Source: a virus
Strand: one strand, 5' to 3'
IMG/VR virus record: IMGVR_UViG_3300045988_129166
DNA length: 64,000 bases
Shown here: positions 1 through 64,000 of the stretch, one piece after another
Layout of the letters: every line of letters begins with the position of its first letter
Position numbering within the stretch: the first letter of the stretch is position 1
The notes under the pieces: model-generated
The model's input: the letters and a program-made list of their open reading frames with translations, nothing else
What the model was told of the DNA's origin: nothing
Databases searched by the model: none
Program-made: the position numbers and the translations under genes

Positions 1-47
1 AAATTCAACAGATCAGTGCTTTAAATTCAACAGATCAGTGCTTTAAA
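1..47. repeat. Tandem direct repeat, 22-bp period x ~2.1 copies (TTCAACAGATCAGTGCTTTAAA), truncated by the window start
   Basis: s[i]=s[i+22] for i=1..25; match breaks at 26/48. Confidence 0.9.
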
Positions 48-155
48 ACGGCATAATGTGAGTTTATTCTACAAAATTCAATAGGTTGAGAGTTGAAAAC
101 TATATTCTATAGATTAGTAGTAATCGGAATGTATAACAATTAAAACATAAACAAC

Positions 156-416
156 ATGAACGTATATGACTTTGCGCCTGACTTAGATTTGAGTAAGGAG
201 GAAGAAGGTTCTATTTTTGGGGTGAAAGGAATAGAAGACGGTGATGGTATAGTATATGCTAAGGTAGTTAGCTGTGTAGAAGTTAAGGATTACAGTTGTG
301 ATAGGTGTATTTTTTATGATTGTTATAAGGATAAATGTTTGTTATCGCGTAGTGATAGTTGTATAGATAGAGACTGGTGTTGTAGGTACGAACAGGCTGC
401 CATAGAGGGGGAGTAG
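156..416 (+). CDS. Small Cys-rich protein (CDRCIF-motif family, putative Zn-binding)
   Basis: 86-aa ORF; motif C-V-E..D..CDRCIF...Y..C shared with ORF 18533..18730. Confidence 0.6.
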   Translation: MNVYDFAPDLDLSKEEEGSIFGVKGIEDGDGIVYAKVVSCVEVKDYSCDRCIFYDCYKDKCLLSRSDSCIDRDWCCRYEQAAIEGE

Positions 417-523
417 GCGGCGCCTTGGGCTAAGGCCTGCGGTTGTAGGTGGAACGTAGGTCGGAGCAGAGCCGGAACAGTTTGTTGTGGAACTAAAAAA
501 AATAAAAAGGAGGAGATAGCGAT

Positions 524-604
524 ATGAAAAAGGCATTTAAGATATTTTCTATTATGTTTGTCATAGAAATAGTGTTGATAGCTATTTTAGATGCTATGGC
601 GTAA
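524..604 (+). CDS. Candidate 26-aa hydrophobic micropeptide
   Basis: AAAAGGAGGAG SD 6 nt upstream of ATG 524; MKKAFKIFSIMFVIEIVLIAILDAMA; below ORF-track size cutoff. Confidence 0.3.
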   Translation: MKKAFKIFSIMFVIEIVLIAILDAMA

Positions 605-646
605 GTGAGAAAAATTTCTTCATTAATTTTCTTATGCTTTAGACAG

Positions 647-676
647 AGTGCTCCCGTCTGCGAAGATCGGAGCACT
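647..676 (+). promoter_or_regulatory. Stem-loop (8-bp stem AGTGCTCC/GGAGCACT) with 14-nt loop containing GTCTGCGAAGAT; weak U-rich tail
   Basis: Perfect inverted repeat seen directly. Loop 12-mer identical to the loop of the terminator hairpin at 3768..3796. Confidence 0.6.
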
Positions 677-757
677 TGCTTTATGGGATTCATGGTGCGG
701 TAGGTCGGTTCGATTCCGGCGATCTCACACAACATTAAAAACAAAGGAGGAAAGAAA

Positions 758-919
758 ATGAAAGATGGTATTACATTACATCCAGAACACGGATTGAATC
801 CGTCTATAGAAGTTTGCATGATATGTGGCGAAGAGATGGGGATTGCTTTATTAGGGAATAACATCAAGGGGCAGGCGCCGCATCATATATGCACGGGAGA
901 AATATGTGACAATTATTAA
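758..919 (+). CDS. Small zinc-finger-like protein (53 aa)
   Basis: AAAGGAGGA SD 8 nt upstream of ATG; CMICGEE...HHICTGEIC cysteine/histidine pairs; below ORF-track cutoff. Confidence 0.45.
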   Translation: MKDGITLHPEHGLNPSIEVCMICGEEMGIALLGNNIKGQAPHHICTGEICDNY

Positions 920-1688
920 CGTAAGTTTCTATGAAACAATAGCAGATCCTCGATATTTCTTTGAACAAGATTATGAAGAGATGCCGGAATATGAGGAGGA
1001 ATTAGATTTTGATTTTGATTCTTATTGCAATAAGTTTATTCCTTTTGTACAGGAATGGGCGGATAAGGTGGGCGAACGCCTTTATGAATATGGTGTGAAT
1101 AACATAAAGGTAATATCGGTCGGACATCCAAAAGATCGCAATTATGGTACTGATTGGATGGATGTAAGGATAGAGTTTTGTGATGAATGGAGGCAAAAGA
1201 TGTTATCTAACATTGGTAAGATTATTAATGATGATAAATGCAAGAAGTATGCGGAGGCTAATTATCGGTCGGTATCAGGATACATCTTTTTAGGGCCTGA
1301 AGATTTAAAGGAATTTGAAAAGAAAATAATAGAAAGAAAGTCGGATTCTGGATATGATGTAACAATATTATTAAATATGTATCTAACTTTGGCTTTTGTA
1401 AAAGAATTTGGATTTAAAGCCGGAGAAGCGTGGAGTGAAATAACAGAATATGCTTACGGATGTTTGTCGTATTCCGATTTTGCAACAACAGAGATGCTTA
1501 TACCAGAAGGTTCGGAGCATTTATTCAAAGACATTTACACGGCAAAGGCCGACGAATTATATCATCATGTCCTGGATAAATTCGGATGGGCGTGGCGTGA
1601 TCCGAAATATAAGTCAGAAACAGAATTATGCGCGATGCTAAAGTGGGCAAAAGAAAAAGGCTTGACCATTGAAGAGTTAAGTATTTAA
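906..1688 (+). CDS. Hypothetical protein (260 aa; track start is GTG, true start uncertain)
   Basis: Long ORF in the co-oriented early gene array; no recognisable motif. Confidence 0.75.
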   Translation: MTIINVSFYETIADPRYFFEQDYEEMPEYEEELDFDFDSYCNKFIPFVQEWADKVGERLYEYGVNNIKVISVGHPKDRNYGTDWMDVRIEFCDEWRQKMLSNIGKIINDDKCKKYAEANYRSVSGYIFLGPEDLKEFEKKIIERKSDSGYDVTILLNMYLTLAFVKEFGFKAGEAWSEITEYAYGCLSYSDFATTEMLIPEGSEHLFKDIYTAKADELYHHVLDKFGWAWRDPKYKSETELCAMLKWAKEKGLTIEELSI

Positions 1689-1715
1689 TTGTTAAACATA
1701 AGGCAGTAGTGGTGC

Positions 1716-2000
1716 GTGAGTATAGGTGCTGCCGTTAAAATATTTTATAAGATGAAAAAAGAAGAGATTCAAACTATTTTATACACAATCAAAGAAGGAG
1801 ACAGTATTAAGATCAAAGTACAAGACAAAAGTGAAGAGATAAGACTGCGGGATCATGTAAGAAGAACGCAGAAATACGGATACAGGTTTTGTTTGTCTCA
1901 TTTGCATGATGGAATTTTCTATCTGGAGAAGTTGGAAGAAGGGGATAAGGATAAATACTATAGAGTAATAAACAGAGGAAATGGAAAGACCGGAGTATAA
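1716..2000 (+). CDS. Hypothetical protein
   Basis: 94-aa ORF in packed array. Confidence 0.6.
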   Translation: MSIGAAVKIFYKMKKEEIQTILYTIKEGDSIKIKVQDKSEEIRLRDHVRRTQKYGYRFCLSHLHDGIFYLEKLEEGDKDKYYRVINRGNGKTGV

Positions 2001-2274
2001 TAAGCTACGCAAAATGGCTAAGACTACTCCAGGTCTGATAGTGGACGAGGCGCAAAACATGATGCGTGTATCGCTATACGATAATGGGGAACTTAAGAAG
2101 GTGGTAGTAGTAATGAAATGCGATTCTTTTTTACAGTCAAAAAGTAACATAGAAAAGATAATGTTATTATCATCTTCTATAGAAGATAGAAAAAACAAAG
2201 AAAAAAATAAAGCAAAATCAGAAAATGAACAGAATAACAAAAATAAGAGAAGAAATAGGAGAAAAACAGGTTGA
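1981..2274 (+). CDS. Hypothetical protein with K/N/R-rich low-complexity C-terminus
   Basis: 97-aa ORF overlapping its neighbours; basic tail NKEKNKAKSENEQNNKNKRRNRRK. Confidence 0.5.
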   Translation: MERPEYNKLRKMAKTTPGLIVDEAQNMMRVSLYDNGELKKVVVVMKCDSFLQSKSNIEKIMLLSSSIEDRKNKEKNKAKSENEQNNKNKRRNRRKTG

Positions 2275-2608
2275 TTTAACCTTTTACGGGCACTTTTGCA
2301 GCCTTATCGAAGGTGATAGAAAGATAATACTAAGAGCGATAAAAAACGGTCGTAAAAAAGGCGTAATCGGAGCCATTCAGCCTGGGAGACATGATAGAAT
2401 TTGGACCACATGGTCTATTGCTTTTGATGATCTGAAGGTAGGGGATACGGTAGAGTTCAGTACATCTGGAAAATACAATCCCGGATTTCATTCTACAGAA
2501 AAGTATGTAGGGTGTGTAGAATGGATAAAAGGATCGGAATGTGCGATAAAAACCGGCAATGGAATGGCGGTAGTATTAATTAAACACATAGAAAGGGTAG
2601 TAAAATGA
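2225..2608 (+). CDS. Hypothetical protein
   Basis: 127-aa ORF; ATGA overlap with the next gene. Confidence 0.6.
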   Translation: MNRITKIREEIGEKQVDLTFYGHFCSLIEGDRKIILRAIKNGRKKGVIGAIQPGRHDRIWTTWSIAFDDLKVGDTVEFSTSGKYNPGFHSTEKYVGCVEWIKGSECAIKTGNGMAVVLIKHIERVVK

Positions 2609-2889
2609 TGGGGTTGAGAGAATTTGTAGAACTTTTTGACAAGAATGAAGTAAAGAATTTGTTTAATGCATTGTCTTCATGTATAGAATACGTAAGGATA
2701 GATTTGCATGTATTTAATATAGGTGCTCATGTTGCGTGTCTGTACAGTAATGATCCTGAATTGCTTTCACAGGCAGAAGGTTGTAATGTGAATATGATAA
2801 TAGAGGTACCCTACTTGTTTGAAGCATTTATGGAATACGCTTCACCGGAACTGAAAGCTTATTATGATGAACTAACAAAAGAAGTATGA
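2605..2889 (+). CDS. Hypothetical protein
   Basis: 94-aa ORF; ATGA junctions on both sides. Confidence 0.6.
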   Translation: MMGLREFVELFDKNEVKNLFNALSSCIEYVRIDLHVFNIGAHVACLYSNDPELLSQAEGCNVNMIIEVPYLFEAFMEYASPELKAYYDELTKEV

Positions 2890-3368
2890 AAGAGGAAGTA
2901 GAACGGATAAAGAAGTTGGTAGGCATAGATCATAACAGATGGGAGCAACCTTGTACATGTGATAAATGCAAGAACATGTGTAAGGTCCCTTGTATTGGTA
3001 CGCCAAAAGACATAGAGGCTATTATAGATGCCGGATACGCTGACAGGTTAAAAGAAACAATGTGGATGGTAGGGTATCTTGCAGTGAAAGAAAAACCAAT
3101 AGCGATGATCCAGCCAACAGAGAAAGACGGGTGGTGCGCATTCCGCCAGCCGGACGGTCTCTGCGAGCTGCATGACCGCGGACTAAAGCCGACTGAAGGA
3201 GTTCTGGCTTCTTGCAAGGTGGTTGAAGAAGACGATATTCCAACATACGAGACATCCGTACTTAGAGCGGTAGCCCACGAGTGGGTTAAGGTAGAGAACT
3301 TCGCAACTATAATGAGGGTCGTTTTTAAATACTTGCATTACAATGAACGTAGAGAACAAGATAAATAA
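2886..3368 (+). CDS. Cys-cluster protein, YkgJ/CxxCxxCC-like putative Fe-S or Zn-chelating domain
   Basis: CTCDKCKNMCKVPC ... GWCAFRQPDGLCELHDRGLKP resembles the YkgJ-family Cys pattern (from memory). Contains a GC-rich codon island. Confidence 0.6.
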   Translation: MKEEVERIKKLVGIDHNRWEQPCTCDKCKNMCKVPCIGTPKDIEAIIDAGYADRLKETMWMVGYLAVKEKPIAMIQPTEKDGWCAFRQPDGLCELHDRGLKPTEGVLASCKVVEEDDIPTYETSVLRAVAHEWVKVENFATIMRVVFKYLHYNERREQDK

Positions 3369-3747
3369 GATAGCTAAGATCTTAAAAGAAAAAGGATTTA
3401 TTGTGTATAAGAAAGGCGGAAAGGAACCAGGTGTGTTTTACGCCAAAGAAGGTGACAGCCGGATAGGATTCGTTTATCCCAACAACGGATATATATACGA
3501 CAGGATAAAAATGTGGTCTTTTTCAAGGGTATATAAACCACATAAGAAAACCGGGTCTTCGTGCTTAATGTGTGTCAGCGACGAATTTACTATAGAGAAT
3601 GCGATTAAGAGCATAGAGGATAGATTGTGGGTAAATTACATAAAAGACGGTAACAGAAAACGACCAGAAGAATATAAAAATATAAGAGAATTTGTTGGTA
3701 GCTTCACTAAATTCTACAACTCTGTAGAATTAGTTGAGGTTAAGTAG
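3343..3747 (+). CDS. Hypothetical protein
   Basis: 134-aa ORF followed by a terminator at 3768. Confidence 0.65.
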   Translation: MNVENKINKIAKILKEKGFIVYKKGGKEPGVFYAKEGDSRIGFVYPNNGYIYDRIKMWSFSRVYKPHKKTGSSCLMCVSDEFTIENAIKSIEDRLWVNYIKDGNRKRPEEYKNIREFVGSFTKFYNSVELVEVK

Positions 3748-3767
3748 TTTTCCATGTAAGTTAGTTA

Positions 3768-3803
3768 CCGGCACTGGTCTGCGAAGATAGGTGCCGTTTT
3801 TTT
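3768..3803 (+). terminator. Rho-independent terminator (stem CCGGCAC/GTGCCG, loop TGGTCTGCGAAGATAG, T7 run)
   Basis: Hairpin plus TTTTTTT seen directly, 21 nt after the stop of 3343..3747. Loop carries the same GTCTGCGAAGAT 12-mer as the hairpin at 647. Confidence 0.7.
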
Positions 3804-3824
3804 ATTCAAGAAAGGAGGACAAAG

Positions 3825-4103
3825 ATGGAGAAAAGAGACAAGAAGATGCCTTACGAGGTAGTCATACAGGAAAGAAAAAGAGTGGATTTGTACGGTAACG
3901 TAGTGTATTATATCCATTGGTTTGATAAATATGGGTACAATATCACAAAAGAATGGAAATTCTGGAGCAAGGGCCCGAAAAAGAAATATGATAGAGTTAA
4001 TCGTTATCTAACGGATAGTTGGCTGAAGGAATACTGTGGGAATAACAATTTAAAGATAAGTAGAATTGAGGAACTTGATTATTATTATAAAATAACAGAT
4101 TAA
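3825..4103 (+). CDS. Hypothetical protein
   Basis: AAAGGAGGA SD 8 nt upstream of ATG; 92 aa. Confidence 0.75.
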   Translation: MEKRDKKMPYEVVIQERKRVDLYGNVVYYIHWFDKYGYNITKEWKFWSKGPKKKYDRVNRYLTDSWLKEYCGNNNLKISRIEELDYYYKITD

Positions 4104-4107
4104 TATT

Positions 4108-4392
4108 ATGACAGCAGCAGAAAAATTGCGTATGGAAATAGCGCAAGAAGCACCATTTAGTAAGGACGAATTTATTAGTAAAATCTCTCGTCTAATTAAG
4201 GCGTATGGATATGCAAGTTTTATTTGCGACAAGCATATTAGAGAAACCGATGTATCGCCTAACGGTAACACGATCCGTATGGCACATGAACAAGTGGCAA
4301 TTGATTTTGCTCGTTCTGAGGGTTTCTCGGTATCATATAAACATAACAGTTATGGTGTTAGATACATAGTATTCACTTTGTGTAAAATATAA
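4108..4392 (+). CDS. Hypothetical protein
   Basis: 94-aa ORF in array. Confidence 0.65.
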   Translation: MTAAEKLRMEIAQEAPFSKDEFISKISRLIKAYGYASFICDKHIRETDVSPNGNTIRMAHEQVAIDFARSEGFSVSYKHNSYGVRYIVFTLCKI

Positions 4393-4396
4393 AGAC

Positions 4397-4738
4397 ATGG
4401 AAGACAGACTTATTACAACAAAAGAAGTAGGGAATTATCGTATAAAAATATACTATGATACTGACATGGAATGTCCTTGTAAAAGTTGGGATATGGCAGC
4501 ATGTTTCTTATGGGAATATAGCGATTCATACCAACTGCAAGATGTGTGCGATTGGAGAGAAGTATTTGGTAAATACGGAGATGGTCGACACTCGCTTATA
4601 GATGCACTACATAAACTTATTAGTGAATATGTTAAATGGAAAGACTTGCTGAATTATTTTAAGAAAGGCAAGATTGACGTTTCTATGTATGTAAGCCGCT
4701 ATCTTTCTATAAATCACAACAAGAAATCCAGAAAGTAA
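4397..4738 (+). CDS. Hypothetical protein
   Basis: 113-aa ORF. Confidence 0.65.
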   Translation: MEDRLITTKEVGNYRIKIYYDTDMECPCKSWDMAACFLWEYSDSYQLQDVCDWREVFGKYGDGRHSLIDALHKLISEYVKWKDLLNYFKKGKIDVSMYVSRYLSINHNKKSRK

Positions 4739-4832
4739 ATCCGCTTTATGCTTTCAAGGTGGCCACTGCTTATTTTAGAGAACAAGGGAAGGTTCCGGTA
4801 TTTGAAGATAGTAACTGTAGATTAATAAAACT

Positions 4833-5069
4833 ATGAGCATAAAAGTAATAAGATACAGGTTGCCCTCTTATTGGGCTTGCCCGTTAATCAATGATGATTA
4901 CACTGGATTAACGGATGAAGAATGTGAGGAAATCCAACGCTTCTTGGAAGCAGCAGAAGGTTATCCGGTAGATGTAGATTTGGAAACACAAGGGTTTTAC
5001 CGTTGTAATGACGCAGGAACACTTCCCGGAGAGTGTGCAGATTTTATTTTTCATAAGTGTAATGATTAA
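4833..5069 (+). CDS. Hypothetical small acidic Cys-containing protein
   Basis: 78-aa ORF. Confidence 0.55.
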   Translation: MSIKVIRYRLPSYWACPLINDDYTGLTDEECEEIQRFLEAAEGYPVDVDLETQGFYRCNDAGTLPGECADFIFHKCND

Positions 5070-5080
5070 ACTAAAATAAT

Positions 5081-5977
5081 ATGGAAACTACAAACAAACT
5101 GTTTTATTCAGGTACAAAATTCTTTACAGAAAATGAAGAAGATTATAGAATAACAGTTAGAATCTCTTTGGATGATGACTGCAAAAATAACATATGCGAC
5201 TGGAGCATAACAGCCGACGTTGACTGGAAAAACAAGCATGGAAAATATGAGGATTACTTAGGAGGCTGCTGCCACGATGAAGTCGTAAAACATTTTCCGG
5301 AATTGGCGAAATTCATATCGTTGCATCTTTGTAACCATTATGGTGCTCCTATGTATCCGGTAGATAATGGTATGTATCACATAAAAAATAGTGGTATGTC
5401 TGTGGCAATGGAGTATTTGCGTATATCAAAACAAGAATGCGTAGAATTATATAAAGCCTCTGAGGATAAGTTGTATTTCAAGTATCTGCTTTTCAATCTG
5501 GGGATTGTGGATAGACAGAAAAGAGAATCAGAAGAACTTATTGCGGAACTTGAAAAATTGTGTGGTAAGAAGTGGGTTAATCCATATAAGCCGGAAGAAG
5601 AAAGATTTGTTTTAACACTAACGGACGAGGAACGTTTGCTTATTGAAGAGCGCATTAAAGCTGGGTATTATTCCGCAGAAAGTATCGAAAAACGTAGGGA
5701 AGAGACTCATAAGGCAGAGATGTTGAAAAAGCGTGCTGAAATTTGTGAGCAATATGATAAGAAAATCAGACAAGCAGAAGCAGAAAAGAAGATAATGCTT
5801 TGTGTGTTTGATTATGGGTTGTCTACCGATAATGTTATATATTATCCTCACACGAACACTTTGTCTTTCAACTGGGACAGCTATGAAGAAAAAATCACAC
5901 AAGAAGAGTTTGATGATTTTGTGAATAAGGTAGACCGCTCTCAATTGCCAGAAGATATTAGGTTTGAGCTTAAATAA
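5081..5977 (+). CDS. Hypothetical protein (298 aa)
   Basis: Long ORF; no motif recognised. Confidence 0.75.
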   Translation: METTNKLFYSGTKFFTENEEDYRITVRISLDDDCKNNICDWSITADVDWKNKHGKYEDYLGGCCHDEVVKHFPELAKFISLHLCNHYGAPMYPVDNGMYHIKNSGMSVAMEYLRISKQECVELYKASEDKLYFKYLLFNLGIVDRQKRESEELIAELEKLCGKKWVNPYKPEEERFVLTLTDEERLLIEERIKAGYYSAESIEKRREETHKAEMLKKRAEICEQYDKKIRQAEAEKKIMLCVFDYGLSTDNVIYYPHTNTLSFNWDSYEEKITQEEFDDFVNKVDRSQLPEDIRFELK

Positions 5978-6278
5978 AATACAGGATATGGAAAGATTGA
6001 ATTTTGAAACATTGTTTCGTATCGTAAGATGGGATTACAACCGTTGTTTTAAGGATGAGTCGTTAGATAAGGATTTGTTCGTGGAAAAATATGGGAAAGT
6101 TACGGGTGAACATTATTATAACAAGTTCGTTCATGAGTTTGACGGGAACATCCTGAAGATGATTGGTTACTTCAGAGGTTCCGAAAAAGAGGGGCAAGTC
6201 TTCTGCGATATGATAACCGAACGTATTGAAAAATGCGAAAAGAGAATGTCATATGATAAAGGTAAGTTAAACAATTAA
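5964..6278 (+). CDS. Hypothetical protein
   Basis: 104-aa ORF with a short overlap upstream. Confidence 0.6.
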   Translation: MSLNKIQDMERLNFETLFRIVRWDYNRCFKDESLDKDLFVEKYGKVTGEHYYNKFVHEFDGNILKMIGYFRGSEKEGQVFCDMITERIEKCEKRMSYDKGKLNN

Positions 6279-6290
6279 AAAGATATTTAT

Positions 6291-6818
6291 ATGAACAATT
6301 CAATAGTCGCTCACTTGTGGGCTCATGAACAAGAAGAATCAGCATCAGGGAGCAATTTCTTCTTTGAAGGTACAAGTATTTATTCTTATGGGCATCACTT
6401 TGAAGTCGGAAGAATAGTAAAAAACAAACAAGGGAAGAAAGCATACCTGATAAATGAAGATTATTATTCTGCTACCACGAGCAAACATCAATGCTATGTT
6501 CGTAATGCGATACCAACTTGGGCAATGGTTTTCAGTGTAAAGGAAGATGATTATTTTCCATTCTCATCTACTGATGTAGTAGGATACGAGTATAAACTTC
6601 TCTACCATGAGAAATTCTTCGAACATCTTCATATGAAGAGGCTGGTCATTGACGAAAATATTCCTTTTCCAGTAAGCACATGGGAGCGCTCATATCGGTA
6701 TAAAGGATATGGTTACAATATGTGCCGGGAGACAAAGAAAAAACTTCTACAGGCTATTAAAGGTGTAAACGTAGAGGAGGAAGATGTATCTTTGTACACT
6801 ACTGGAGGATGGGATTAA
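6291..6818 (+). CDS. Hypothetical protein (175 aa)
   Basis: ORF immediately upstream of the methyltransferase. Confidence 0.7.
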   Translation: MNNSIVAHLWAHEQEESASGSNFFFEGTSIYSYGHHFEVGRIVKNKQGKKAYLINEDYYSATTSKHQCYVRNAIPTWAMVFSVKEDDYFPFSSTDVVGYEYKLLYHEKFFEHLHMKRLVIDENIPFPVSTWERSYRYKGYGYNMCRETKKKLLQAIKGVNVEEEDVSLYTTGGWD

Positions 6819-6836
6819 CTTATAAAACATAGATAT

Positions 6837-7499
6837 ATGAATACATCATTTGAGAAATCTAAAAACAGTACAGATGAATGGTACACACCTAAAGAAATTA
6901 TAGACGCTTTAGGGAAATTTGATTTAGATCCATGTGCGCCTATGCGTCCGTTATGGAGGACAGCCAGGGTTATGTATAACAAAGAGCAAGATGGATTAAA
7001 ACAAAAATGGGAAGGAAGGGTATGGTTAAACCCACCTTATTCAAGACCGACTATAGAGCATTTTATTACTCGTATGGTAGAGCACAATAATGGAATAGCT
7101 CTTCTTTTTAATCGTCTTGACAATAAGATGTTTCAGGATGTTGTATTCCCGAAAGCAAAAGGTATATTGTTCATGAAAGGAAGGATAAAATTCCACAGAG
7201 AAGATGGAACAATAGGTGAAAGTCCAGGATGTGGGTCTATTCTGGTTGCATTCGGCGAAGAGAATGCGGAAACATTAAGATCTTCTAATATTGAAGGAAG
7301 ATATATACAGGTCAATCAAGAACCGTGTAACACCCATGTAGATTGGGAACAACGTAGATACGAGATGGCAAAAACCATGCTTCCGATCACATCCGTATCA
7401 GGGCGTGGACCTCACGGTGAATTAATATTGGAGACGTGTGATAAGGCGGCTGAATTAGCTGTAATATATGCGGATGCTTTAATTAAAGAGCTGAAATGA
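6837..7499 (+). CDS. Phage Dam-type DNA N6-adenine methyltransferase
   Basis: N-terminal EWYTPKEIIDALGKFDLDPCAP and catalytic NPPYS (motif IV) match the phage Dam MTase family. Confidence 0.8.
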   Translation: MNTSFEKSKNSTDEWYTPKEIIDALGKFDLDPCAPMRPLWRTARVMYNKEQDGLKQKWEGRVWLNPPYSRPTIEHFITRMVEHNNGIALLFNRLDNKMFQDVVFPKAKGILFMKGRIKFHREDGTIGESPGCGSILVAFGEENAETLRSSNIEGRYIQVNQEPCNTHVDWEQRRYEMAKTMLPITSVSGRGPHGELILETCDKAAELAVIYADALIKELK

Positions 7500-7642
7500 A
7501 ATCAACAGTATATGATCATCTTGAGAATGATTATAGATTTTATGGACTTCCTCTATTTAAAGCTACGGCTGTAAAATATGGATGGAATAATCCTATAGGG
7601 GAAGACAGTGGGAGAGAGAAAAAATATAATTTACAGTATTAA
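7496..7642 (+). CDS. Candidate small ORF (48 aa)
   Basis: ATGA overlap with the stop of the upstream gene; fills a 150-nt gap; below track cutoff. Confidence 0.35.
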   Translation: MKSTVYDHLENDYRFYGLPLFKATAVKYGWNNPIGEDSGREKKYNLQY

Positions 7643-7653
7643 GTGGATATATT

Positions 7654-8490
7654 ATGAGCACAAGTAAAGAATACAAGGCGGTAAGAAACTGCATACTAAA
7701 TGAACTTCACCTTACCAAAGAAGATATAATCAAAAACATAGAATCATTATTGGAAAAGCTTGTAAAAAGGTGCATGCATAATACATACGGAGGAAACAAT
7801 CAGATAGAAAATTGGATCAGATGTATGGTAAATGATGAGCTTAAACAAAGGAATTATGGTTTTGTAGAAAGAATAAGCAAGGAAGTCATAAAAGATCATG
7901 TGTTGAATGAGTTGAACATAATTGTAAGACCAAAAAATGAAAGATGCGTATGTGAAAATAGAGTACCATCAAGAAAAGATGGTTTGTATCTAATCTACGG
8001 AAACGGACACGCTGAGCCGTTTACTGGAGAGAATTTCAAAAAGAATGTGCGTTATATCGGATTAAAACACAAAGACGTATCGTTTGCTATCTCGCTGACG
8101 GAGCATGATAGTGTACGGTTGCTTGACAATGATAGCCGTAAAGAATCCGGAAGTGAGACATATTACGAACGTGAATGTGATGCGCTGTTTGATATTGATG
8201 GACGCGGCAACACGGAACGACTTGTAGCCAGAAATCCAAAATTGAGAAATCTGCTGGAAGATGACGAGTATATACCATCTCTTGGTCAATTAAATTTAAT
8301 GAACCATTATATGGACGAACTAAACAAAGCATTCGCTTATGTTTCGGCATCTCCCCTCTCCTCGGCGCGGTATTGGTCCAGTACCGAGTACAGCAAGGTC
8401 AGCGCATGGTTCGTGAGCTTCTCCATTGGCGGCACGCACAGCAACATCGAGTACAATAGTTACAGGGTTCGGGCGGTAATTGATTTTTAA
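7654..8490 (+). CDS. Hypothetical protein (278 aa) with an atypical GC-rich, Ser/Ala-rich C-terminal segment
   Basis: ORF immediately upstream of the ABC ATPase; last ~45 codons lie in a GC-rich island at 8340..8470. Confidence 0.65.
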   Translation: MSTSKEYKAVRNCILNELHLTKEDIIKNIESLLEKLVKRCMHNTYGGNNQIENWIRCMVNDELKQRNYGFVERISKEVIKDHVLNELNIIVRPKNERCVCENRVPSRKDGLYLIYGNGHAEPFTGENFKKNVRYIGLKHKDVSFAISLTEHDSVRLLDNDSRKESGSETYYERECDALFDIDGRGNTERLVARNPKLRNLLEDDEYIPSLGQLNLMNHYMDELNKAFAYVSASPLSSARYWSSTEYSKVSAWFVSFSIGGTHSNIEYNSYRVRAVIDF

Positions 8491-9733: not shown

Positions 9734-10048
9734 ATGAACTGGAAGAAATTTAAAGAGGAAAAACCTCCAGAGGGAGAAGAAGTGTTGGCTTACCATCCAA
9801 GTTGGATAGATGAAGATTTCAACCCAAGAGGTATAAGAATAGGGTTTTGGAATGGAGGGGACGATTTTAAATCAGCCCATTGGTGGGATTATCAAGATTG
9901 TTATATCACAATCTCTCATTGTGATTGTGATGATAATTCTCTTTTCAGTGATAGAATAAAAAACAGCATAGAGCCAGAGTTATGGATATCACTTGATGTT
10001 ATTACAAATTACTTACCTAACATAAAACAAAATCACTTATCACAATGA
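9734..10048 (+). CDS. DUF551-like phage protein
   Basis: N-terminal W..F.EEKPPEGEEVLAY resembles the DUF551 signature W...LPEEGEEVLVY (from memory). Confidence 0.6.
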   Translation: MNWKKFKEEKPPEGEEVLAYHPSWIDEDFNPRGIRIGFWNGGDDFKSAHWWDYQDCYITISHCDCDDNSLFSDRIKNSIEPELWISLDVITNYLPNIKQNHLSQ

Positions 10049-32932: not shown

Positions 32933-35900
32933 CTATTTATAACTTACATCATCATCCCCTTCCGAATCAGGGGTGGCGCCGATGAAGAACATCATTGACT
33001 TATTGTTCGTCTGCTGCCACCAATTATAGGCGCGCGCTACGTCTTCCGGCGTCTTGATATTATACCATTGTTTGATAAACGTCTGTTTGGCGAGTTGCCT
33101 AAATAACTTAGACTCTCCTTTGTATGTACCTGACGTCACCTTATCAAGTGAGTAGTTCCTAAGATCGGTAAGATCCTTAAGTTTCCGTCCCATAACAAAT
33201 GGGTCGTTAATGATATCAACCACGTTAAGCTCCATAATAAATGGCATCTGTGAAGCTATTTCGTTTATGGTTCTGAATCCGACGTAGGATCCGAATTGAG
33301 TAAGCCAACTTTCCTCGTTTTCATCATCATCACGCCACCCGGCAAGAAGCATAGATACGGCTTGCATGATAAGGAACGTGCCGGCATAGACACTGAGACG
33401 TTTTAGATTGGTTTTCTCTACCTCATTCATATTGTCTTTATTTTCGTTCCAAGCATCTATGATGTTTTTCATACCAGACTCGGAAGCTAAGCTAAATGTT
33501 TTGGCTATCATATTCTTTAACGTAATTGACAGTCCTTCCTCTTCTTGCATTGTCTGGAAATTGAAGCCACGTCTTTTCCACAGACGTTGAGCCGCCAGCA
33601 CCAACCATCCTCGGTGGGCGGTCATGAACCTGGCTATCCAGTTGCGTGATGCGGCAGTCCGATTTTCTTCATTCAAAGATCCGTTACATATCTGCGACAA
33701 GCTGCGAACTTGATTTCGAGTTATAGCCATCTGGGTTTCGACTTCCTCGGCAGTAACACCCGATCCAGGTTTTACGACCACCTTCCCATCCACAACATCT
33801 ACCATACTCCATAAAGTACGATCTTTTAATGCATTCCATTCTCTTTTTATGGTACTCTGTTCTTTATTTCGTTCTTTTTCCATCTTGAAATCTTGGAACG
33901 TGTAGAACCGGCCTTTATAGTATCGCACGTTATCCATAGTGGCAATCATAACCTGCGGGTCAAGAGGGTAGTTCAGGATTTCCATAAAAGCATACATCGG
34001 TGAACGCATTAAGGTCCTGGCCACTCTATTGTATCCGGCACCATACATACGATTTCGGATATTGAATATCCCCATTCTCTCACCTATGACATATAATTTG
34101 CTTTTCCTATCTATGTCTCCGGTTTCTGCTATACAAGATGGCGCAAGGCGTGAAAACTCAGCCGATGCGTATTTAAGGGAGTCTTTGCTTATATACTGTC
34201 CTACAGCTGATTCCATGATGAGGTTGATATGGCCGGTAAGGGCGCCGGTAGCTGCCACAAACGGGGACAGCGCCAGGTTCATGACCGACATAAATCTTTC
34301 AACGGCCATCATAATTCTTGTAAGGTCTACCGTATATCCTCCGATGTTCACCGTAAGTTTTTTGGTGTTCATCCTAATGCCATAATAATGATCGTTGAAG
34401 AAGTCCCTGAACATCTGATATGCTTGGGTTGCTTCAGCCTTCTTACCGCCTTCAAATTGTTTATTCAGTAACATCTGCTCCAGTCCTTGGGCAAGCTCTA
34501 TAGACTTCTGCTTTTCGTTGTATAACGATGACTGCATCATAAGCATCGAATAAGAGTAGCCAAAATCGTGAGATACGTCATCTTGGTTCTCTAATTCATA
34601 TATGTAGTATTTAGGTATGGACCGAACCCTATCTTCCGGATCATATACCTCACCCTGGCGTGTTTTACCATACAGGGAGTCATCTACGCGGTCAAGACAT
34701 AAGTCGGATACGAAGTTCCTGACCGTACTTTTAAGGCTGATACCTAACCCTTCTATACGTTCTATATCTTGTTTGGATATCTGTGGAATAGCATACAGAT
34801 TAGGGCTCTGCTCTTTATATAGATCAAGGGATTGTCTTTTTATTTCCTTGAGTTTTTGAATCATATTCCATTGCTCTACGTTTTTAGTAGCGACCTCATT
34901 ACCATCAGCATCATACTTAATGCCGAAGTCGTTGAAATACGATTCATCACGATACAGGCTCTTCTTGGGCATACGATGACCATACCCATGATCTTTTACA
35001 TAATCAGGGTTACGATCGCTATTTTCGGCCTCAGATTCAGCCACCCACGCTCTTGCAGGGTCGAAAGACAGGTATGATATGTCCATACCATAATCTTGTG
35101 TGGAAGTCCCATTCTGTACGTCCTTAACCATCTGCGCCACATCTATCTCACCTCGACCTATTTTGTCGATCATAGCCGCATATCCGGTAGGCGCCATGCG
35201 TTTATAGTACGAAAAGACCTGGCTCCTGGCAAATTCATTAACAATAGCATTGGCTTCTTCTATACCCTCTTCCCTTGTATTATTTAAAAATAAGCTGGCC
35301 ATCTTAGCATTAACAGCATTCCTAAAATCTCTACCGTCTAATTCTTTGCTTATACCGAGCTTTTCTGACAGGTAGTTGGTTTCAGATACGGTAAACAGAT
35401 ATCGGTTATCAGCAGCCTTAAACAGCTTATCCCTTAAAGCCTGAATCCTTTTTGCTTTCTTCGCCGTAGTATGACGTTGTACGAACTTCCATTCCACTTC
35501 CTTAGAGTCAGCAAGAGCATTTAAATAAGACTGATTGACTTCGTTTTCAGCCTTACTGCTTTTAGTAAGGTATTTATCAATATCTTCAAGACCCACCATC
35601 TTAGCATAATCTATCAAAATAGCGTAATCGGCTTCAATAGCTTCGGATGCAGCCCTAAAAGCATCTCTTTCAGATGAGGTAAATGTCGCTTCATTGATTT
35701 CTCCGATGTCAGCCACGTCACGGTTGTTGCCGATTATTTCCTTGATAATGGCCTTATTTTTTTCTATATCTTTTACAATGGAATCCACGTCAGTCGCATC
35801 TCTATCACTTGTCGTAGAACTAATGATGTCTTGTGCCATTTTGAGATACGAAGCCTTGTTATTTGATTCGGTACGTGCCGACTGTTCCGATTCTATGTCA

Positions 35901-38900
35901 TTCCAAAACCGATCGTTAAATGACAGGTGCCCTCCCAACATAAGTGTCTTCAGCGCAGCTTCTCCTCCTGACTCGATTTGAATCGTTCTCAATTTTTGTA
36001 AAAACGATTCTGATACGGCATTAGTGACATTATTTGATTCTTTTCTCCAAACTTCATTTATGGCTTGTATTTCTTTAGCCATCTTAAGCTGGTCTCCGGT
36101 TTTTTCAACACGTCTGGTACCAACATATATGTATTCCGAAGCTGCTTCCTTACGTTGTTTACGAAGCAGTCCTTCTTCTTCGTAGTTACTACTCTTATAG
36201 TAAGCAACCTCATCAAAATTACCACCGCTATCAATAAAAGGCTGCCTCAATATCCGTTTTTGCCGGGAAAGAGCATTAAGATACTCTTTAGTTGTTTGAG
36301 AAACCGGATGCCCTAATTCTTCTTCGGCCTTTTTGTATATGGATTCCATTCTTGTGGCATAACTTTCACTAAATTCCAGTTCCGAATTTTCAGCATCCCA
36401 CTTTTCCATCTGCTCCGTATAGATCTTTTCCTGCTCGATGGTAAAAATATCGGTATTAACCCTGTCAGACGATGGTTTAAATTTAGCGTTTTCAGTAACC
36501 GTATTTCCGTCCTTGTCAACTACTTCTCTTTTAAATACGTAATTACGATTATTGTCAACCACATCATTGATTTCTTCTTCTGATATTTCTATGTTCATAG
36601 CAGTAGCAAACGCACGCATCTGTGCCAACTTCTTATTACGATCATATTTAGCCATATCAAGAGCACTACGAAGGTAATTAGAAGTTTTGCCGTCTACTTT
36701 CTGAAGCAGTTTTTCAAATTCAGATTTGTTAAAACCATGCTTTTTAGCATATGCCAGGAAGTCGGATATGGCGGGCTGGGCATTCACCATCGCATTGTAA
36801 TTGTCTTTGGCAATCATAGCTCCAAGAGCGTTATTGAACGGACTGGAAGAATGCTCTAATATACCGAACCACCTACTTATCCAAGAAACATCGTGTTGAA
36901 CCTTGTCAAAAAATTCTTTTACTCTCTTTACCTTATCTGCCGGCACATGAAGTTCGTTCATTAACTTATCAAGCAACGTACTTTCATCAAGGTCTTGTAC
37001 TGATTTAATATCAGACTGAATACCATTGATGTCGGCAATGACGGTATTGATCCTATTTGTATAATCCTGCTTTTCACGTTCATCAAATTCGGTACTTCTG
37101 TTACGGATATATCCTCGAAGATCGTTCATGATCGGAAGAACCTGATTGTTGATAATATCTACGTTCTTTCGATCATTGGTATTGAAGTGAAGCTTACCGT
37201 CTTTGGTATCACCATGAAGGATGGTGTTCACCACATTACTTAAGTATCTGACCTGAGCTTCGGCTGTGGAGATCATGCTGTTCATGGCAGCCGCCATCTC
37301 ATTCTTGTCTATTTCGGTCTCTACTTTATTTATCTTATCTTCTATGGTCTTAAGCTGCGCAAGGGTCATAGACGTAGTTACAGCCCTATCAGAGCTTATC
37401 TGACGTAAGTCTCTTAATGTTTTCCTTAATGCCCGGATTTTAGACTCAAGAAACTTGTTCTTGTTCATAGAAGAAAGGGAATATAATGTAAAGTCATTAT
37501 CCTTTAACAGAGAGGTATCAAATCCTTTATCTATGTCAGTAATGGCAAGATCACGAATGTTTTTAATAACGTTATTCAAATCTTGTCTTTGAGTAGATAA
37601 AGCTGATTTAAGCCAACTTACTATTCCAGAGAGAAGCTGCCGGACGCGCCCCAGGAAGGAGGTGGGCTCTACCGGCGCCTGTGCTGTTCCGGTCTGCATC
37701 TCCCTGGCGAGGATCTTTCCAAGAATTTCTCTCCTAACCGCATTATCAAGCTCAGCTCCCTCATATACCTTACCGTATGTATTATAATACTGACCTGCAT
37801 ACTGGTTCCACTCCTCTGTGCCTTCTACGTCTTGCAAAACATCCTCAACAGCATTCTGATCTCTGTATGCCTCTACAAGGAAGTGGGATGTTTCTTCTAC
37901 TAAATCAGATAAAGTAGCATCTTCACCAACTGCTATTACGTTATTGGCAATATCCGCCAATGCCTTAGCAGAAGGTTCGTGCCCGTATTTGGTTTGGTAC
38001 TTCTCTATATAGTCGGTCATACCTATGACACTAACGCCCAGCGTTTTTAATATCTCTACAATAGAATTTCGTTGGTCACGTTCCTGCCTGCTATAATCCG
38101 ATACGATCTTAGCTTTAGCATCAGCATAAAGATCGTTGTCTTCTAATATGAATGAAACTACAAGCGCATCAAAATGATCGTACTTAGCATCCAATTCATT
38201 GTATCTTCCTGACTTGAGATCGTTCTTTATCTGCTCCTTGCTAACCCTCTCCGTTCCTCCGGTAGCGAGCCTCATAGTTACCTTACTATTATCCAACGAG
38301 CTTATGGTTATCATACCTTGGTCGTTCATGGAAACATCGGAACCAAAATGATTACGGAGCTCGGTGTAGGATAATGCTGAATTGAAAAGTCTAATTTGTC
38401 CTGTATGTCCTTCTCCTGTAAGATAATAGCTCCTTGTTTCAGGATCGAATATCTTGGATCCGGACAAAAGACCTTTCTTTATAAGGTAGTTAATTATCCC
38501 GCCTTTCGTTGATAAAGAAGTAGAAGCAGAAGCGGTCATGACCGGTATAAAAGACTTGGGATTATTAAGAACATACTTTCCAGCCTTGTAAGTAATGTCT
38601 GCCACGCCATCCACGGTAGATTCTTGAACGGTGCCGGATAAGAATCCTATTCTAATATCATTCCCGCCAGAGCGAAGAGCTTCTCCGTAATCTTCAAATA
38701 ATTGACTACGATCGTTCATGAAAAACAAACGAGGCTCTCCGGTCTGATACGTTACACCCACAGGATTAGAATCTGTCTGTGGTAACTCTTCTGGGCTAAA
38801 TATCTTAAGACCGTCTTTTATAACCATATAATTAACACCCTTATCCTGTACCATAGATACGGGGGTGAAGTCCGAAGATATAGTATCTTGTAGATACTGA

Positions 38901-39355: not shown

Positions 39356-39495
39356 AAGAATTTATTTTGTTTTGACACAAAGGTAATTAAAAATCAGGCA
39401 CATGATAAAAACAAAGCCGTCTAACTTCCCAGTCTGACGGCTTAATATACATATGAAAAAATAATTATAATCTGACGTAAATCGTCAAGTTACGC

Positions 39496-39852
39496 TTACG
39501 CATTATATTTGTACCCATTTCTATGAATAAACCTTCCTGATTCGAACCTTTCCACATCATCCGGTCCAATAGGTCCGCAGTCTTCCCTCCTTGCCTCATA
39601 CCACAGCCCCGGCTTACGGAGCCGGCAGGTTATGACGTATTTAAAGCAGTTGTGAGTAAAATGGAATACGGAGCCTACTGGGAAATACCTGGTAGTTTGA
39701 AACACTATTCTTTTTCGTTTAGTATCAAACACTATATCTCCTACTACCTTAGTCACGTAATAGCTTATGCCATTTAACGTTTCATCTGTTTGTGGTATCC
39801 AATAATAACCTTTTGCCATGCCACAAATATACGAAAAAGTCGGATAACTCAC
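39496..39852 (-). CDS. Hypothetical protein
   Basis: 118-aa ORF in the minus-strand small-gene array. Confidence 0.55.
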   Translation of the reverse strand: MSYPTFSYICGMAKGYYWIPQTDETLNGISYYVTKVVGDIVFDTKRKRIVFQTTRYFPVGSVFHFTHNCFKYVITCRLRKPGLWYEARREDCGPIGPDDVERFESGRFIHRNGYKYNA

Positions 39853-63382: not shown

Positions 63383-63598
63383 TTTTATGACGGTTTGGAT
63401 AAGAGACAGGAAAACGACTCTGAACGTAACCGACTGACCGTCAGTGGTGGGACAACAAATCTTGAATTAAAACTACGCCTATGAATAGTCTCCGTTTTCC
63501 TTAATATTAAGACCATTTTCAATGATCTTACTCATTATATTATTTATATTATTTTATATACTTTACCATTTATTCATATAATTGTTTACAGTGAATGA

Positions 63599-63774
63599 AC
63601 TTAACGACCGAAGGGAGTTAAGTGAGTGAACAGATTAACAAATTACTTTTTCCGTCTATTGTATTGTTTGCCTAATTGTGTTAAAGGATTGAGTATCGTG
63701 ACCGAAGGGAACGATGCGAAAGAACATATAACATTTAAAAAACGACTGAACCTATCGACTGAAAGGAGATAGGT
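63599..63774. repeat. Array of three stem-loops with conserved 11-nt loop GAC(C/T)GAA(G/A)GGA and covarying stems (63599..63623, 63695..63715, 63750..63774), plus CGACYGAA iterons from 63415
   Basis: Stems ACTTAAC/GTTAAGT, ATCGT/ACGAT, ACCTATC/GATAGGT all perfect; loops GACCGAAGGGA, GACCGAAGGGA, GACTGAAAGGA. Confidence 0.8.
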
Positions 63775-63837
63775 GATGGAGTGACGTTAATAGTTATATT
63801 AGGTAGCCAGTGGAGAATTAGGCAGGCTGGTAGGCGA

Positions 63838-63857
63838 GACGGGCTCCCATGCCCGTC
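63838..63857. promoter_or_regulatory. GC-rich hairpin GACGGGC-TCCCAT-GCCCGTC without U-tract
   Basis: Perfect 7-bp inverted repeat seen directly. Confidence 0.5.
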
Positions 63858-64000
63858 AGGACAGTGGAGGTACGTAGGTCTGTTCTGTTAAACCAAGGCG
63901 ATGATAGTTCCATCCTTCACGAAATCGCACAAAAAGCCGGATTATCTTGATATCGTTCTTCAACCTTCGGTATCCGCATAACGAGTCTCAAATCCGGCTT

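What the first reader, a model, noticed from the sequence alone, without database searches (positions are those of the whole stretch)
647..3803. Two intergenic hairpins with an identical 12-nt loop (GTCTGCGAAGAT) and different stems, each upstream of an AAAGGAGGA-ATG gene start
The hairpin at 647..676 (stem AGTGCTCC) and the terminator at 3768..3796 (stem CCGGCAC) share the exact loop core GTCTGCGAAGAT although their stems are unrelated. Each is followed within 15-70 nt by a near-identical AAAGGAGGA Shine-Dalgarno and an ATG (758 and 3825). A conserved loop on covarying stems suggests a specific RNA-binding factor, boxB/nut-like antitermination or a translational operator, rather than generic terminators. 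The loop shares a CGAAG core with the right-end hairpin array.
Basis: seen in the sequence. Interest (0 to 1): 0.55.

Follow-up and report, generated by a model that had tools for sequence, protein, structure and literature searches.

The report
Conserved-cap terminator hairpins in gut phage
The two hairpins are real, but the shared "loop" is a small four-pair helix closed by a standard GNRA tetraloop. It tops a family of RNA hairpins in this crAss-like gut phage and other gut phages that sit at transcript ends or just upstream of tRNA-like genes.

Summary
Both hairpins (647-676 and 3769-3796) and the identical 12-mer are present as described. The 12-mer is not a loop. It folds as GUCU/AGAU closed by the GNRA tetraloop GCGA, and joins the lower stem through a 1x1 mismatch.

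The window is an epsilon crAss-like phage, 92% identical to csAssE-Sib. A covariance model finds a third member on the minus strand (39414-39443). It finds six members in the csAssE-Sib genome.

Relatives show compensatory changes in all lower stems. The cap consensus is G.U / N-N' / C-G / U-A plus a GNGA loop. The wobble pairs work on the gene-sense strand only.

H2 (followed by U7) and the third member H4 (followed by a U-rich tail) have the full anatomy of intrinsic terminators. H1 has a broken U tail. It is followed 7 nt later by a conserved, covarying tRNA-like acceptor/T-arm minihelix (684-728).

The same cap sits on about 27 unrelated stems in other gut phages and a few Bacteroidales and Clostridia genome bins. 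Eight of these lie 4-9 nt upstream of a tRNA or anticodon-less tRNA-like element.

The best reading is 3'-end hairpins (terminators) whose cap is under sequence-specific selection. No boxB/nut site, translational operator or DNA hairpin promoter is supported. What recognises the cap is unknown.

The parts
647..676 (+). H1. Hairpin with lower stem AGUGCUCC/GGAGCACU, a C.C mismatch, and the cap GUCU-GCGA-AGAU at 656-667.
   Evidence: Fold of -20.5 kcal/mol, z -4.8. Model R1 scores it 41.7 bits. Relatives show compensatory variants AAUGCUCC/GGAGCAUU and AACGCUCC/GGAGCGUU, plus G.U intermediates. In the orthologue in L288 every lower-stem pair is replaced.
677..683 (+). Interrupted U-rich tail/spacer UGCUUUA between H1 and the tRNA-like element.
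   Evidence: Read from the sequence. U-rich, but not a clean U tract.
684..728 (+). tRNA-like minihelix. Acceptor UGGGAUU (684-690) pairs with GAUCUCA (721-727), including a G3.U70-type wobble. A 13-nt linker follows, then the T arm GUCGG-UUCGAUU-CCGGC (704-720) and discriminator C728. No D arm or anticodon arm.
   Evidence: Read from the sequence. ARAGORN and Rfam are negative. In about 48 close relatives the linker is hypervariable while the helices are fixed or change in pair-preserving ways. In L288 the T stem (CCUGG/CUGGG) and acceptor pair 7-66 (U.G to G-C) covary, and the linker is 31 nt.
3769..3796 (+). H2. Hairpin with lower stem CGGCACU/GGUGCCG, a G.A mismatch, and the cap GUCU-GCGA-AGAU at 3777-3788.
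   Evidence: Fold of -16.4 kcal/mol, z -3.4. R1 scores it 41.6 bits. Present in all 80 loci fetched through the upstream gene, with the loop GCGA or GUGA and G.U variants in the stem.
3797..3803 (+). U7 tract directly after H2, the tail of an intrinsic terminator.
   Evidence: Read from the sequence. T7 to T9 in relatives.
39414..39443 (-). Lower stem AAGCCGUC/GACGGCUU, an A.A mismatch, and the cap GACU-GGGA-AGUU. It is followed by UGUUUUUAU.
   Evidence: R1 scores it 27.7 bits, E 1.4e-5, with filters off. Sequence. The csAssE-Sib orthologue carries a compensatory G-C to A-U change. It lies 52 nt after the stop of ORF 39496-39852(-) and upstream of the ATG at 39355. A TAccTTTG promoter-like box lies at 39385-39378.
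743..760 (+). AAAGGAGGA plus ATG 758. Context only, not part of the element.
   Evidence: Replaced by another gene without this Shine-Dalgarno in csAssE-type relatives.
3811..3827 (+). AAAGGAGGA plus ATG 3825. Context: start of the gene after terminator H2.
   Evidence: Conserved in close relatives.

Best explanation
H1 and H2 are two of the three members in this window of a family of strand-specific RNA hairpins. The third is H4 at 39414-39443(-). These hairpins mark the 3' ends of transcription units.

Each hairpin has a freely evolving lower stem of 6-10 bp. On top sits a conserved apical module: a G.U pair, a covarying pair, C-G, U-A, and a GNGA tetraloop. A 1x1 mismatch usually separates the module from the lower stem.

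H2 and H4 work as Rho-independent terminators. The nascent hairpin followed by a U tract releases the transcript.

H1 has only an interrupted U tail and is followed after 7 nt by a tRNA-like acceptor/T-arm minihelix. I infer that read-through RNA is cut there by RNase P. The same kind of capped hairpin would then be left a few nucleotides from the new 3' end.

The cap is far more conserved than hairpin stability requires, so I infer that a trans-acting factor recognises it. That factor is unidentified, and could come from the phage or from a Bacteroidales host.

Shown: the anatomy, conservation, covariation, strand specificity, genomic placement and the association with tRNA-like elements. Inferred: termination, RNase P cleavage and the existence of a cap-binding factor.
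For: Structure and significance:
- Folds and z-scores.
- A both-at-apex 12-mer identity occurs once, against 0.03 expected.

Family size:
- Model R1 finds 3 members in the window and 6 in csAssE-Sib, with caps GUCU..AGAU, GACU..AGUU, GCCU..AGGU and GUCU..AGGC.

Covariation:
- Across 20 hairpins, 95.8% of cells are paired, and 8 of 12 pairs carry changes on both sides. The two pairs C-G and U-A under the loop never vary. These hairpins were picked for having flanking stems, so the pairing figure is partly by construction.
- Orthologues show compensatory changes in H1, H2 and H4.
- In L288 the H1 lower stem is fully replaced.

Strand:
- The G.U pair at the base of the cap is nearly invariant, and about 40 further wobble pairs work on the gene-sense strand only. 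They would be C.A on the other strand.

Placement:
- Members lie in intergenic spacers, co-oriented with the upstream gene.
- U tails follow H2, H4, Hx and about 60% of the unrelated members.

Tetraloop:
- Its second base varies freely (C, U, A or G), as expected for GNRA.

tRNA link:
- 8 of about 27 independent cap hairpins have a tRNA T-loop motif within about 110 nt downstream on the same strand. The background rate is 0.008, giving P about 5e-11.
- Several of the downstream elements lack an anticodon arm.
- The minihelix helices covary.

Established knowledge (not tested here):
- An acceptor-stem plus T-arm minihelix suffices as a bacterial RNase P substrate.
- RNase P matures the phage P1/P7 C4 RNA and the P4 CI RNA.
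Against: - No transcript ends are known for this uncultured phage.
- H1's tail (UUGCUUUAU) is a poor U tract. Its minihelix fold is not thermodynamically exceptional (z about 0).
- One csAssE-Sib member (L202:7030-6997) is antisense to the annotated flanking genes and has no U tail.
- At least one unrelated member (L100/L172) lies in a divergent promoter region upstream of a gene. That looks like a leader attenuator rather than an end-of-operon terminator.
- The wide sample of cap hairpins was found by searching for the cap itself, so frequencies are biased.
- No candidate cap-binding protein was found.
- H2 is absent after the homologous gene in the more divergent relative L288.
Confidence: 0.55

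Rival explanations
1. The hairpin is mainly a 5'-leader module of tRNA and tRNA-like genes. Its cap sits at a roughly fixed distance upstream of the RNase P cleavage site. It either guides or insulates processing, or is itself released as a small stable hairpin RNA. The copies with U tails are the same small RNA ended by termination instead.
For: - Cap hairpins lie 4-9 nt upstream of tRNAs or tRNA-like elements in 6 phage lineages (8 hairpins), including H3 in front of the tRNA-Met-Gln-Arg-Cys cluster of csAssE-Sib.
- The distance from the cap's 3' end to the tRNA 5' end is 13-16 nt in all 8, although stem length varies from 6 to 10 (my count).
- A TTTAG motif lies 0-7 nt upstream of the stem in 6 of about 27 members, against about 0.5 expected (my count).
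Against: - H2, H4 and Hx have no tRNA-like element downstream.
- In the L288 orthologue the spacing is about 26 nt.
- The stem/spacer compensation is only suggestive with n=8.
Confidence: 0.2
2. These are ordinary intrinsic terminators. The shared cap reflects common descent or exchange of terminator modules, and has no function beyond closing the stem.
For: - GNRA tetraloops are common in terminators (established knowledge).
- H2 and H4 need nothing more than a stem and U tract to terminate.
- Other terminators in the window use other loops.
Against: - Under drift the unpaired or weakly paired apex should change faster than the stem. Here stems are fully replaced while the cap persists.
- A weak G.U and U-A cap is not what selection for stability would pick.
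- The same cap recurs 2-3 times per genome on different stems in unrelated phages, L126 and L130/L169.
- Many members lack U tails.
Confidence: 0.12
3. This is the first reader's idea: a boxB/nut-like site or translational operator. A phage early protein binds the GNRA-type cap to make RNA polymerase resist termination, or to control the Shine-Dalgarno-led gene downstream.
For: - The top of the cap (C-U-GNGA-A-G) resembles the top of lambda and P22 boxB (CU-GAAAA-AG, from memory).
- H1 and H2 lie in the early region, which lacks host-type TAnnTTTG boxes.
- The genes after them carry the rare strong Shine-Dalgarno.
- Some unrelated members sit in leaders upstream of genes.
Against: - No boxA is present; the best match is 5 of 8.
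- H2 is itself a terminator with U7.
- H4 lies in the late region.
- The family occurs in many unrelated phages and in a Prevotella chromosomal terminator.
- The gene and Shine-Dalgarno after H1 are not conserved.
- No N-like or Q-like domain was found in ten early proteins.
Confidence: 0.08
4. These are single-stranded DNA hairpin promoters for a virion-packaged RNA polymerase, as in coliphage N4.
For: - The crAss-like virion RNA polymerase of phi14:2 transcribes single-stranded DNA, and no early promoter motif is known for it.
- The pattern of a conserved apex on variable stems resembles N4 early promoters (from memory).
Against: - The wobble pairs form only on the non-template strand.
- U or T tracts follow the hairpins.
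- Members occur outside early regions and in non-crAss phages and bacteria.
- The geometry (13-bp stem, tetraloop) differs from N4 (5-7 bp stem, 3-nt loop).
Confidence: 0.03

Closest known systems
Rho-independent (intrinsic) terminators with GNRA tetraloops
   Same: A stable G+C-containing stem-loop is followed directly by a U tract, downstream of a co-oriented gene (H2, H4). The stem is closed by a GNRA tetraloop.
   Different: - A 12-nt apical module, including a near-invariant G.U pair, is conserved across paralogues and unrelated phages while the stems vary.
- Many members, H1 among them, lack a proper U tract and instead precede a tRNA-like element.
Lambda/P22 nut boxB hairpins
   Same: A small RNA hairpin whose C-G and U-A top pairs close a GNRA-type loop. 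It lies in phage early operons and has a conserved apex.
   Different: - A tetraloop rather than a pentaloop.
- It sits on a 12-14 bp stem.
- No boxA is present.
- It is often followed by a U tract.
- There are about six copies per genome.
- No N-like protein was identified.
tRNA-like processing signals cut by RNase P (P1/P7 C4 RNA, P4 CI RNA; MALAT1-mascRNA as an analogy)
   Same: A tRNA-like acceptor/T-arm structure inside a longer transcript could create a defined RNA end next to a protective structure.
   Different: - Cleavage is not shown here.
- The element is a bare minihelix with a 13-nt linker.
- The neighbouring hairpin carries a conserved cap of unknown role.
Phage T7 early RNase III sites
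   Same: Hairpins between phage early genes that share sequence features. After processing they would remain at the 3' end of the upstream RNA.
   Different: - The stems here are 12-14 bp with a single 1x1 mismatch, shorter than typical RNase III substrates.
- The conserved part is the apex, not an internal loop.

Membership tests
Intrinsic terminator | Stable stem-loop in the RNA of the transcribed strand | tested here: met
   H1 -20.5 and H2 -16.4 kcal/mol, z -4.8 and -3.4. Wobble pairs are specific to the sense strand.
Intrinsic terminator | U tract immediately 3' of the stem | tested here: inconclusive
   H2 has U7 and H4 has UGUUUUUAU, so both meet it. H1 has UUGCUUUAU, which is interrupted.
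Intrinsic terminator | Lies downstream of a co-oriented gene, in a spacer | tested here: met
   H1 lies 44 nt after the stop at 603. H2 lies 22 nt after the stop at 3747. H4 lies 52 nt after the stop at 39496.
Intrinsic terminator | Transcripts actually end there | not testable with these tools
   No transcript data exist for this uncultured phage.
boxB/nut antitermination site | boxA (CGCUCUUA / GCUCUUUA) a few nt from the hairpin | tested here: not met
   UGCUUUAG, 4 nt upstream of H1, matches at 5 of 8 positions. Nothing similar lies at H2 or H4.
boxB/nut antitermination site | Short 5-bp stem with a GNRA-like pentaloop | tested here: not met
   A tetraloop on a 4-bp cap continued by a 7-9 bp lower stem.
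boxB/nut antitermination site | Cognate arginine-rich N-type protein encoded nearby | tested here: inconclusive
   Ten early proteins have no Pfam match. N proteins are short and poorly modelled.
N4-type DNA hairpin promoter | Hairpin formed by the template strand, with a 5-7 bp stem and 3-nt loop | tested here: not met
   Pairing (G.U) holds only on the non-template strand. The stem is 12-14 bp with a 4-nt loop.
tRNA (element at 684-728) | Acceptor stem plus T arm with a GTTCRANYC loop | tested here: met
   Sequence. Covariation of the T stem and acceptor pair 7-66 against L288 and variant v5.
tRNA (element at 684-728) | D arm and anticodon arm (cloverleaf) | tested here: not met
   A 13-nt linker stands in their place. 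ARAGORN finds 0 genes. The Rfam tRNA and tmRNA models give no hit at E<=10.
Y RNA / YrlA (the relative encodes Ro60) | Ro-binding stem formed by the 5' and 3' ends, plus a tRNA-like domain; matches an Rfam model | tested here: not met
   No Rfam match at E<=10. H1 is a closed hairpin, not a terminal stem. No Ro60 gene was found near other cap hairpins.

The most novel reading that the evidence does not exclude
The cap (G.U, N-N', C-G, U-A, GNGA) is the recognition module of a so far undescribed RNA-protein system. This system would be shared by gut Bacteroidales and Clostridia phages, and perhaps their hosts. It would couple transcript 3'-end formation, by termination or by RNase P cleavage at tRNA-like elements, to a cap-binding factor that controls RNA stability, read-through or tRNA maturation. 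The anticodon-less tRNA-like elements would serve as dedicated processing signals.
Probability: 0.3. Interest if true: 0.7.

Novelty: new variant of a known kind. Interest (0 to 1): 0.5.

Why it matters
- Regulatory signals of crAss-like and other uncultured gut phages are almost unknown. Early promoters and terminators of the virion RNA polymerase have no described motif.
- A short hairpin class that can be modelled would give landmarks for transcription units in thousands of metagenomic phage genomes. This one recurs on unrelated stems and is tied to terminators and to tRNA or tRNA-like genes.
- It would also give a concrete bait for finding its binding factor.
- The conserved anticodon-less minihelix suggests that tRNA-processing enzymes are used to punctuate phage mRNAs.

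Tried and rejected
- **tRNA or known RNA family:** ARAGORN and Rfam (gathering thresholds on the whole window; E<=10 on 1-4200) found nothing.
- **Ro60/Y RNA link:** csAssE-Sib encodes Ro60, but there is no Rfam hit and no Ro60 near other cap hairpins. Dropped.
- **boxA:** checked against the E. coli-type consensus that also holds in Bacteroidetes. Poor match.
- **RfaH ops / UpxY sites:** read. No usable link.
- **phi14:2 early region:** the model gives only a generic terminator at 20 bits. The phi14:2 paper reports no early promoter motif.
- **Deeper orthologues through the 134-aa upstream protein:** the family is narrow, with nothing complete below 75% identity. The one divergent contig lacks H2 but supplied the H1 orthologue.
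- **Pfam on ten early proteins:** no hits.
- **DFDxD RNA polymerase motif in the four giant ORFs:** not found. I therefore do not call the 2140-aa protein a virion RNA polymerase.
- **Literature searches on GNRA terminators in Bacteroides and on crAss tRNA-like hairpins:** nothing relevant.
- **MAFFT alignment of the minihelix with L288:** it misplaced the acceptor strand, so those pairs were counted by hand.
- **Weak Rfam similarity of the Hx hairpin to B. thetaiotaomicron sRNAs:** GibS and BTnc049 at E 4.4 and 0.26. Too weak to use.


Full report
**What the window is.**
- Bases 122-8000 are 92% identical to phage csAssE-Sib (OR575929, 151 kb), an epsilon crAss-like phage from the human gut (paper PMC11054128).
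- Genes run rightward up to about 31.5 kb and leftward after that.
- Most genes have no Shine-Dalgarno sequence.
- Several genes have TAnnTTTG about 30 nt upstream of the ATG. These are expression signals of the Bacteroidota type. That attribution is from my own knowledge.

**Checking the observation.**
- Both hairpins, the exact 12-mer at 656-667 and 3777-3788, and the AAAGGAGGA-ATG starts at 758 and 3825 are present as stated.
- The description of a "12-nt loop" is wrong.
  - Each copy folds as a 4-bp helix GUCU/AGAU closed by the GNRA tetraloop GCGA.
  - A 1x1 mismatch joins it to the lower stem: C.C in H1 and G.A in H2.
  - Energies are -20.5 and -16.4 kcal/mol, with z-scores of -4.8 and -3.4.
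- A repeated 12-mer alone is not evidence. The window has 473 such pairs, against about 261 in resampled sequence.
- Two identical 12-mers both at the apex of a stem of at least 6 bp occur once. The mean is 0.03 in resampled sequence.

**A family, not a pair.** I built a covariance model from 20 such hairpins.
- With filters off it finds a third member in the window, on the minus strand at 39414-39443.
  - Its sequence is AAGCCGUC-A-GACU-GGGA-AGUU-A-GACGGCUU, followed by UGUUUUUAU.
  - It lies 52 nt after one gene and upstream of the 2140-aa gene.
  - A TAccTTTG box lies between the hairpin and that gene's ATG.
- The complete csAssE-Sib genome has six members:
  - H1, H2 and the H4 orthologue.
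  - Hx (GCCU-GUGA-AGGU), in a gene block that this window lacks.
  - H3 (GUCU-GUGA-AGGC), 6 nt upstream of the tRNA-Met-Gln-Arg-Cys cluster.
  - One member antisense to its neighbouring genes.
- Together these define the cap as G.U, a covarying pair (U-A, A-U or C-G), C-G, U-A, and a GNGA loop.

**Conservation and covariation.**
- About a hundred close relatives carry H1 and H2 at the homologous sites.
- H1's lower stem occurs as AGUGCUCC/GGAGCACU, AAUGCUCC/GGAGCAUU and AACGCUCC/GGAGCGUU, plus G.U intermediates.
- H2 shows GUGCCG or GUGUCG.
- The second base of the tetraloop is C, U or A.
- H4 has a G-C to A-U exchange against csAssE-Sib.
- A more divergent relative (L288) keeps a hairpin at the H1 site.
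  - All eight lower-stem pairs are replaced.
  - The cap is changed compensatorily, from GUCU-GCGA-AGAU to GUUC-GUGA-GGAU.
- The near-invariant G.U at the base of the cap and about 40 other wobble pairs would be C.A mismatches on the other strand. The structure therefore belongs to the gene-sense strand, which means to the RNA.

**What they look like functionally.**
- H2 (U7 at 3797-3803; U7-9 in relatives), H4 and Hx have the complete anatomy of intrinsic terminators between co-oriented genes.
- H1 has an interrupted U tail.
- Seven nucleotides after H1 begins a tRNA-like minihelix.
  - The acceptor UGGGAUU (684-690) pairs with GAUCUCA (721-727).
  - A 13-nt linker follows.
  - The T arm is GUCGG-UUCGAUU-CCGGC.
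- ARAGORN and Rfam do not call it, because the D arm and anticodon arm are missing.
- Its helices are nevertheless under structural constraint.
  - The linker is hypervariable among close relatives while the helices are fixed or change in pair-preserving ways.
  - In L288 the T stem becomes CCUGG/CUGGG and acceptor pair 7-66 changes from U.G to G-C.

**The same cap elsewhere.**
- A scan of viral contigs for GTCTGCGAAGATNGG returned, besides relatives, the cap on about 20 unrelated lower stems.
  - Copies occur two or three times per genome in L126 and L130/L169.
- A scan of bacterial genomes gave 7 hairpin contexts among 80 hits. They come from Prevotella, Porphyromonadaceae, Paludibacteraceae and Clostridia bins.
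  - Most have phage-like neighbours.
  - One is a Prevotella chromosomal terminator.
- Nearly all members are intergenic and co-oriented with a neighbouring gene. About 60% have U-rich tails.
- Most members without a U tail lie 4-9 nt upstream of a tRNA, or of a tRNA-like element lacking a normal anticodon arm.
  - Eight of about 27 hairpins have a T-loop motif within 110 nt downstream.
  - The background rate is 0.008, giving P about 5e-11.
- This sample was found by searching for the cap itself, so frequencies are biased. The recurrence within genomes and the tRNA adjacency are not explained by that bias.

**Most likely mechanism.**
- These are RNA hairpins that end up at or near transcript 3' ends.
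- That happens by intrinsic termination (H2, H4). For H1 and the tRNA-adjacent members, I infer it happens by RNase P cleavage at the 5' end of the downstream tRNA or minihelix.
- Acceptor/T-arm minihelices are sufficient RNase P substrates, and phage P1/P7 C4 and P4 CI RNAs are matured this way (established knowledge, not tested here).
- The cap is thermodynamically modest yet conserved while stems are replaced. That argues for sequence-specific recognition by an unknown factor.
- Rivals are a tRNA-leader module, plain terminators sharing ancestry, a nut/operator site, and a DNA hairpin promoter. They are weighed in the structured fields.

- There is no boxA.
- H2 is itself a terminator.
- The family extends to late regions, unrelated phages and a bacterial chromosome.
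- The Shine-Dalgarno gene after H1 is replaced by another gene in csAssE-type relatives.
- Ten early proteins have no recognisable domain.
- The strong Shine-Dalgarno is genuinely rare in this genome. That remains unexplained.

**Verdict.**
- The finding is best filed as a new variant of intrinsic terminator or 3'-end hairpin, with a conserved GNRA-capped module and a link to tRNA-like processing elements.
- Interest is moderate. The function of the cap is open.

Noticed in passing
window 63596-63780 (+): Three hairpins with unrelated 5-6 bp stems share an 11-nt apex, GACCGAAGGGA (twice) and GACTGAAAGGA. They lie on the strand opposite the flanking late genes and are followed by a G+C-rich patch at 63800-63900. 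The array is nearly identical in csAssE-Sib. Model R1 does not score these hairpins, so they are a separate class.
   Followed up: partly
window 1-155; L001 650-830: Tandem direct repeat AAATTCAACAGATCAGTGCTTTA (two copies) at the very start of the window. A TTTAAAAC(A/G)GCAT(A/T)(A/C)TGT(A/G)G-like motif is repeated several times upstream of the first gene in csAssE-Sib. These could be genome-end repeats or early promoters.
   Followed up: no
window 417-500: G+C-rich non-coding patch containing GTAGGTCGG-AGCAGAG-CCGG. It has the same stem as the T arm at 704-720 but a non-T loop. GGTAGG/GTAGGT motifs recur at 441-466, 699-705, 63826-63835 and 63872-63879, and twice as GGCGGTAGGGCGTG in csAssE-Sib upstream of the window start.
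   Followed up: no
window 507-603: A 26-codon hydrophobic ORF (MKKAFKIFSIMFVIEIVLIAILDAMA) with a strong AAGGAGG Shine-Dalgarno, between the G+C-rich patch and H1. Conserved in csAssE-Sib.
   Followed up: no
whole window: Strong Shine-Dalgarno sites are rare. AAGGAGG occurs 18 times against 8 expected, but only about six copies precede start codons: 524, 758, 3825, 18533, 28853 and 44065(-). Three of those six cluster in the first 4 kb. Most genes have none. TAnnTTTG sits 25-39 nt upstream of the starts at 9734, 10144, 16520, 27190, 39355(-), 43294(-) and 63281(-). It is absent in front of genes in the first 9.7 kb.
   Followed up: partly
window 32933-39355 (-): The 2140-aa ORF is 22% identical over 87% of its length to virion structural proteins of Cellulophaga phages phi17:2 and phi4:1. 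It weakly matches a crAss 'putative RNA-polymerase subunit'. A DFDxD motif is not present in it or in the other three giant ORFs.
   Followed up: partly
OR575929 72756-74725 (outside the window, about 4-5 kb beyond its right end): The close relative encodes a Ro60-like protein next to tRNA-Tyr and tRNA-Lys. It also encodes a CCA-adding / poly(A) polymerase-family enzyme, a polynucleotide kinase-phosphatase and NrnA. Together these form an RNA repair and processing gene set that may act on the tRNA-like elements.
   Followed up: partly
L130 2300-3300 (-), L169: An unrelated contig of about 149 kb shares a gene with Prevotella Lak phages. It has an 11-tRNA array with three cap hairpins, an HNH endonuclease ORF and several tRNA fragments between the tRNAs.
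   Followed up: partly
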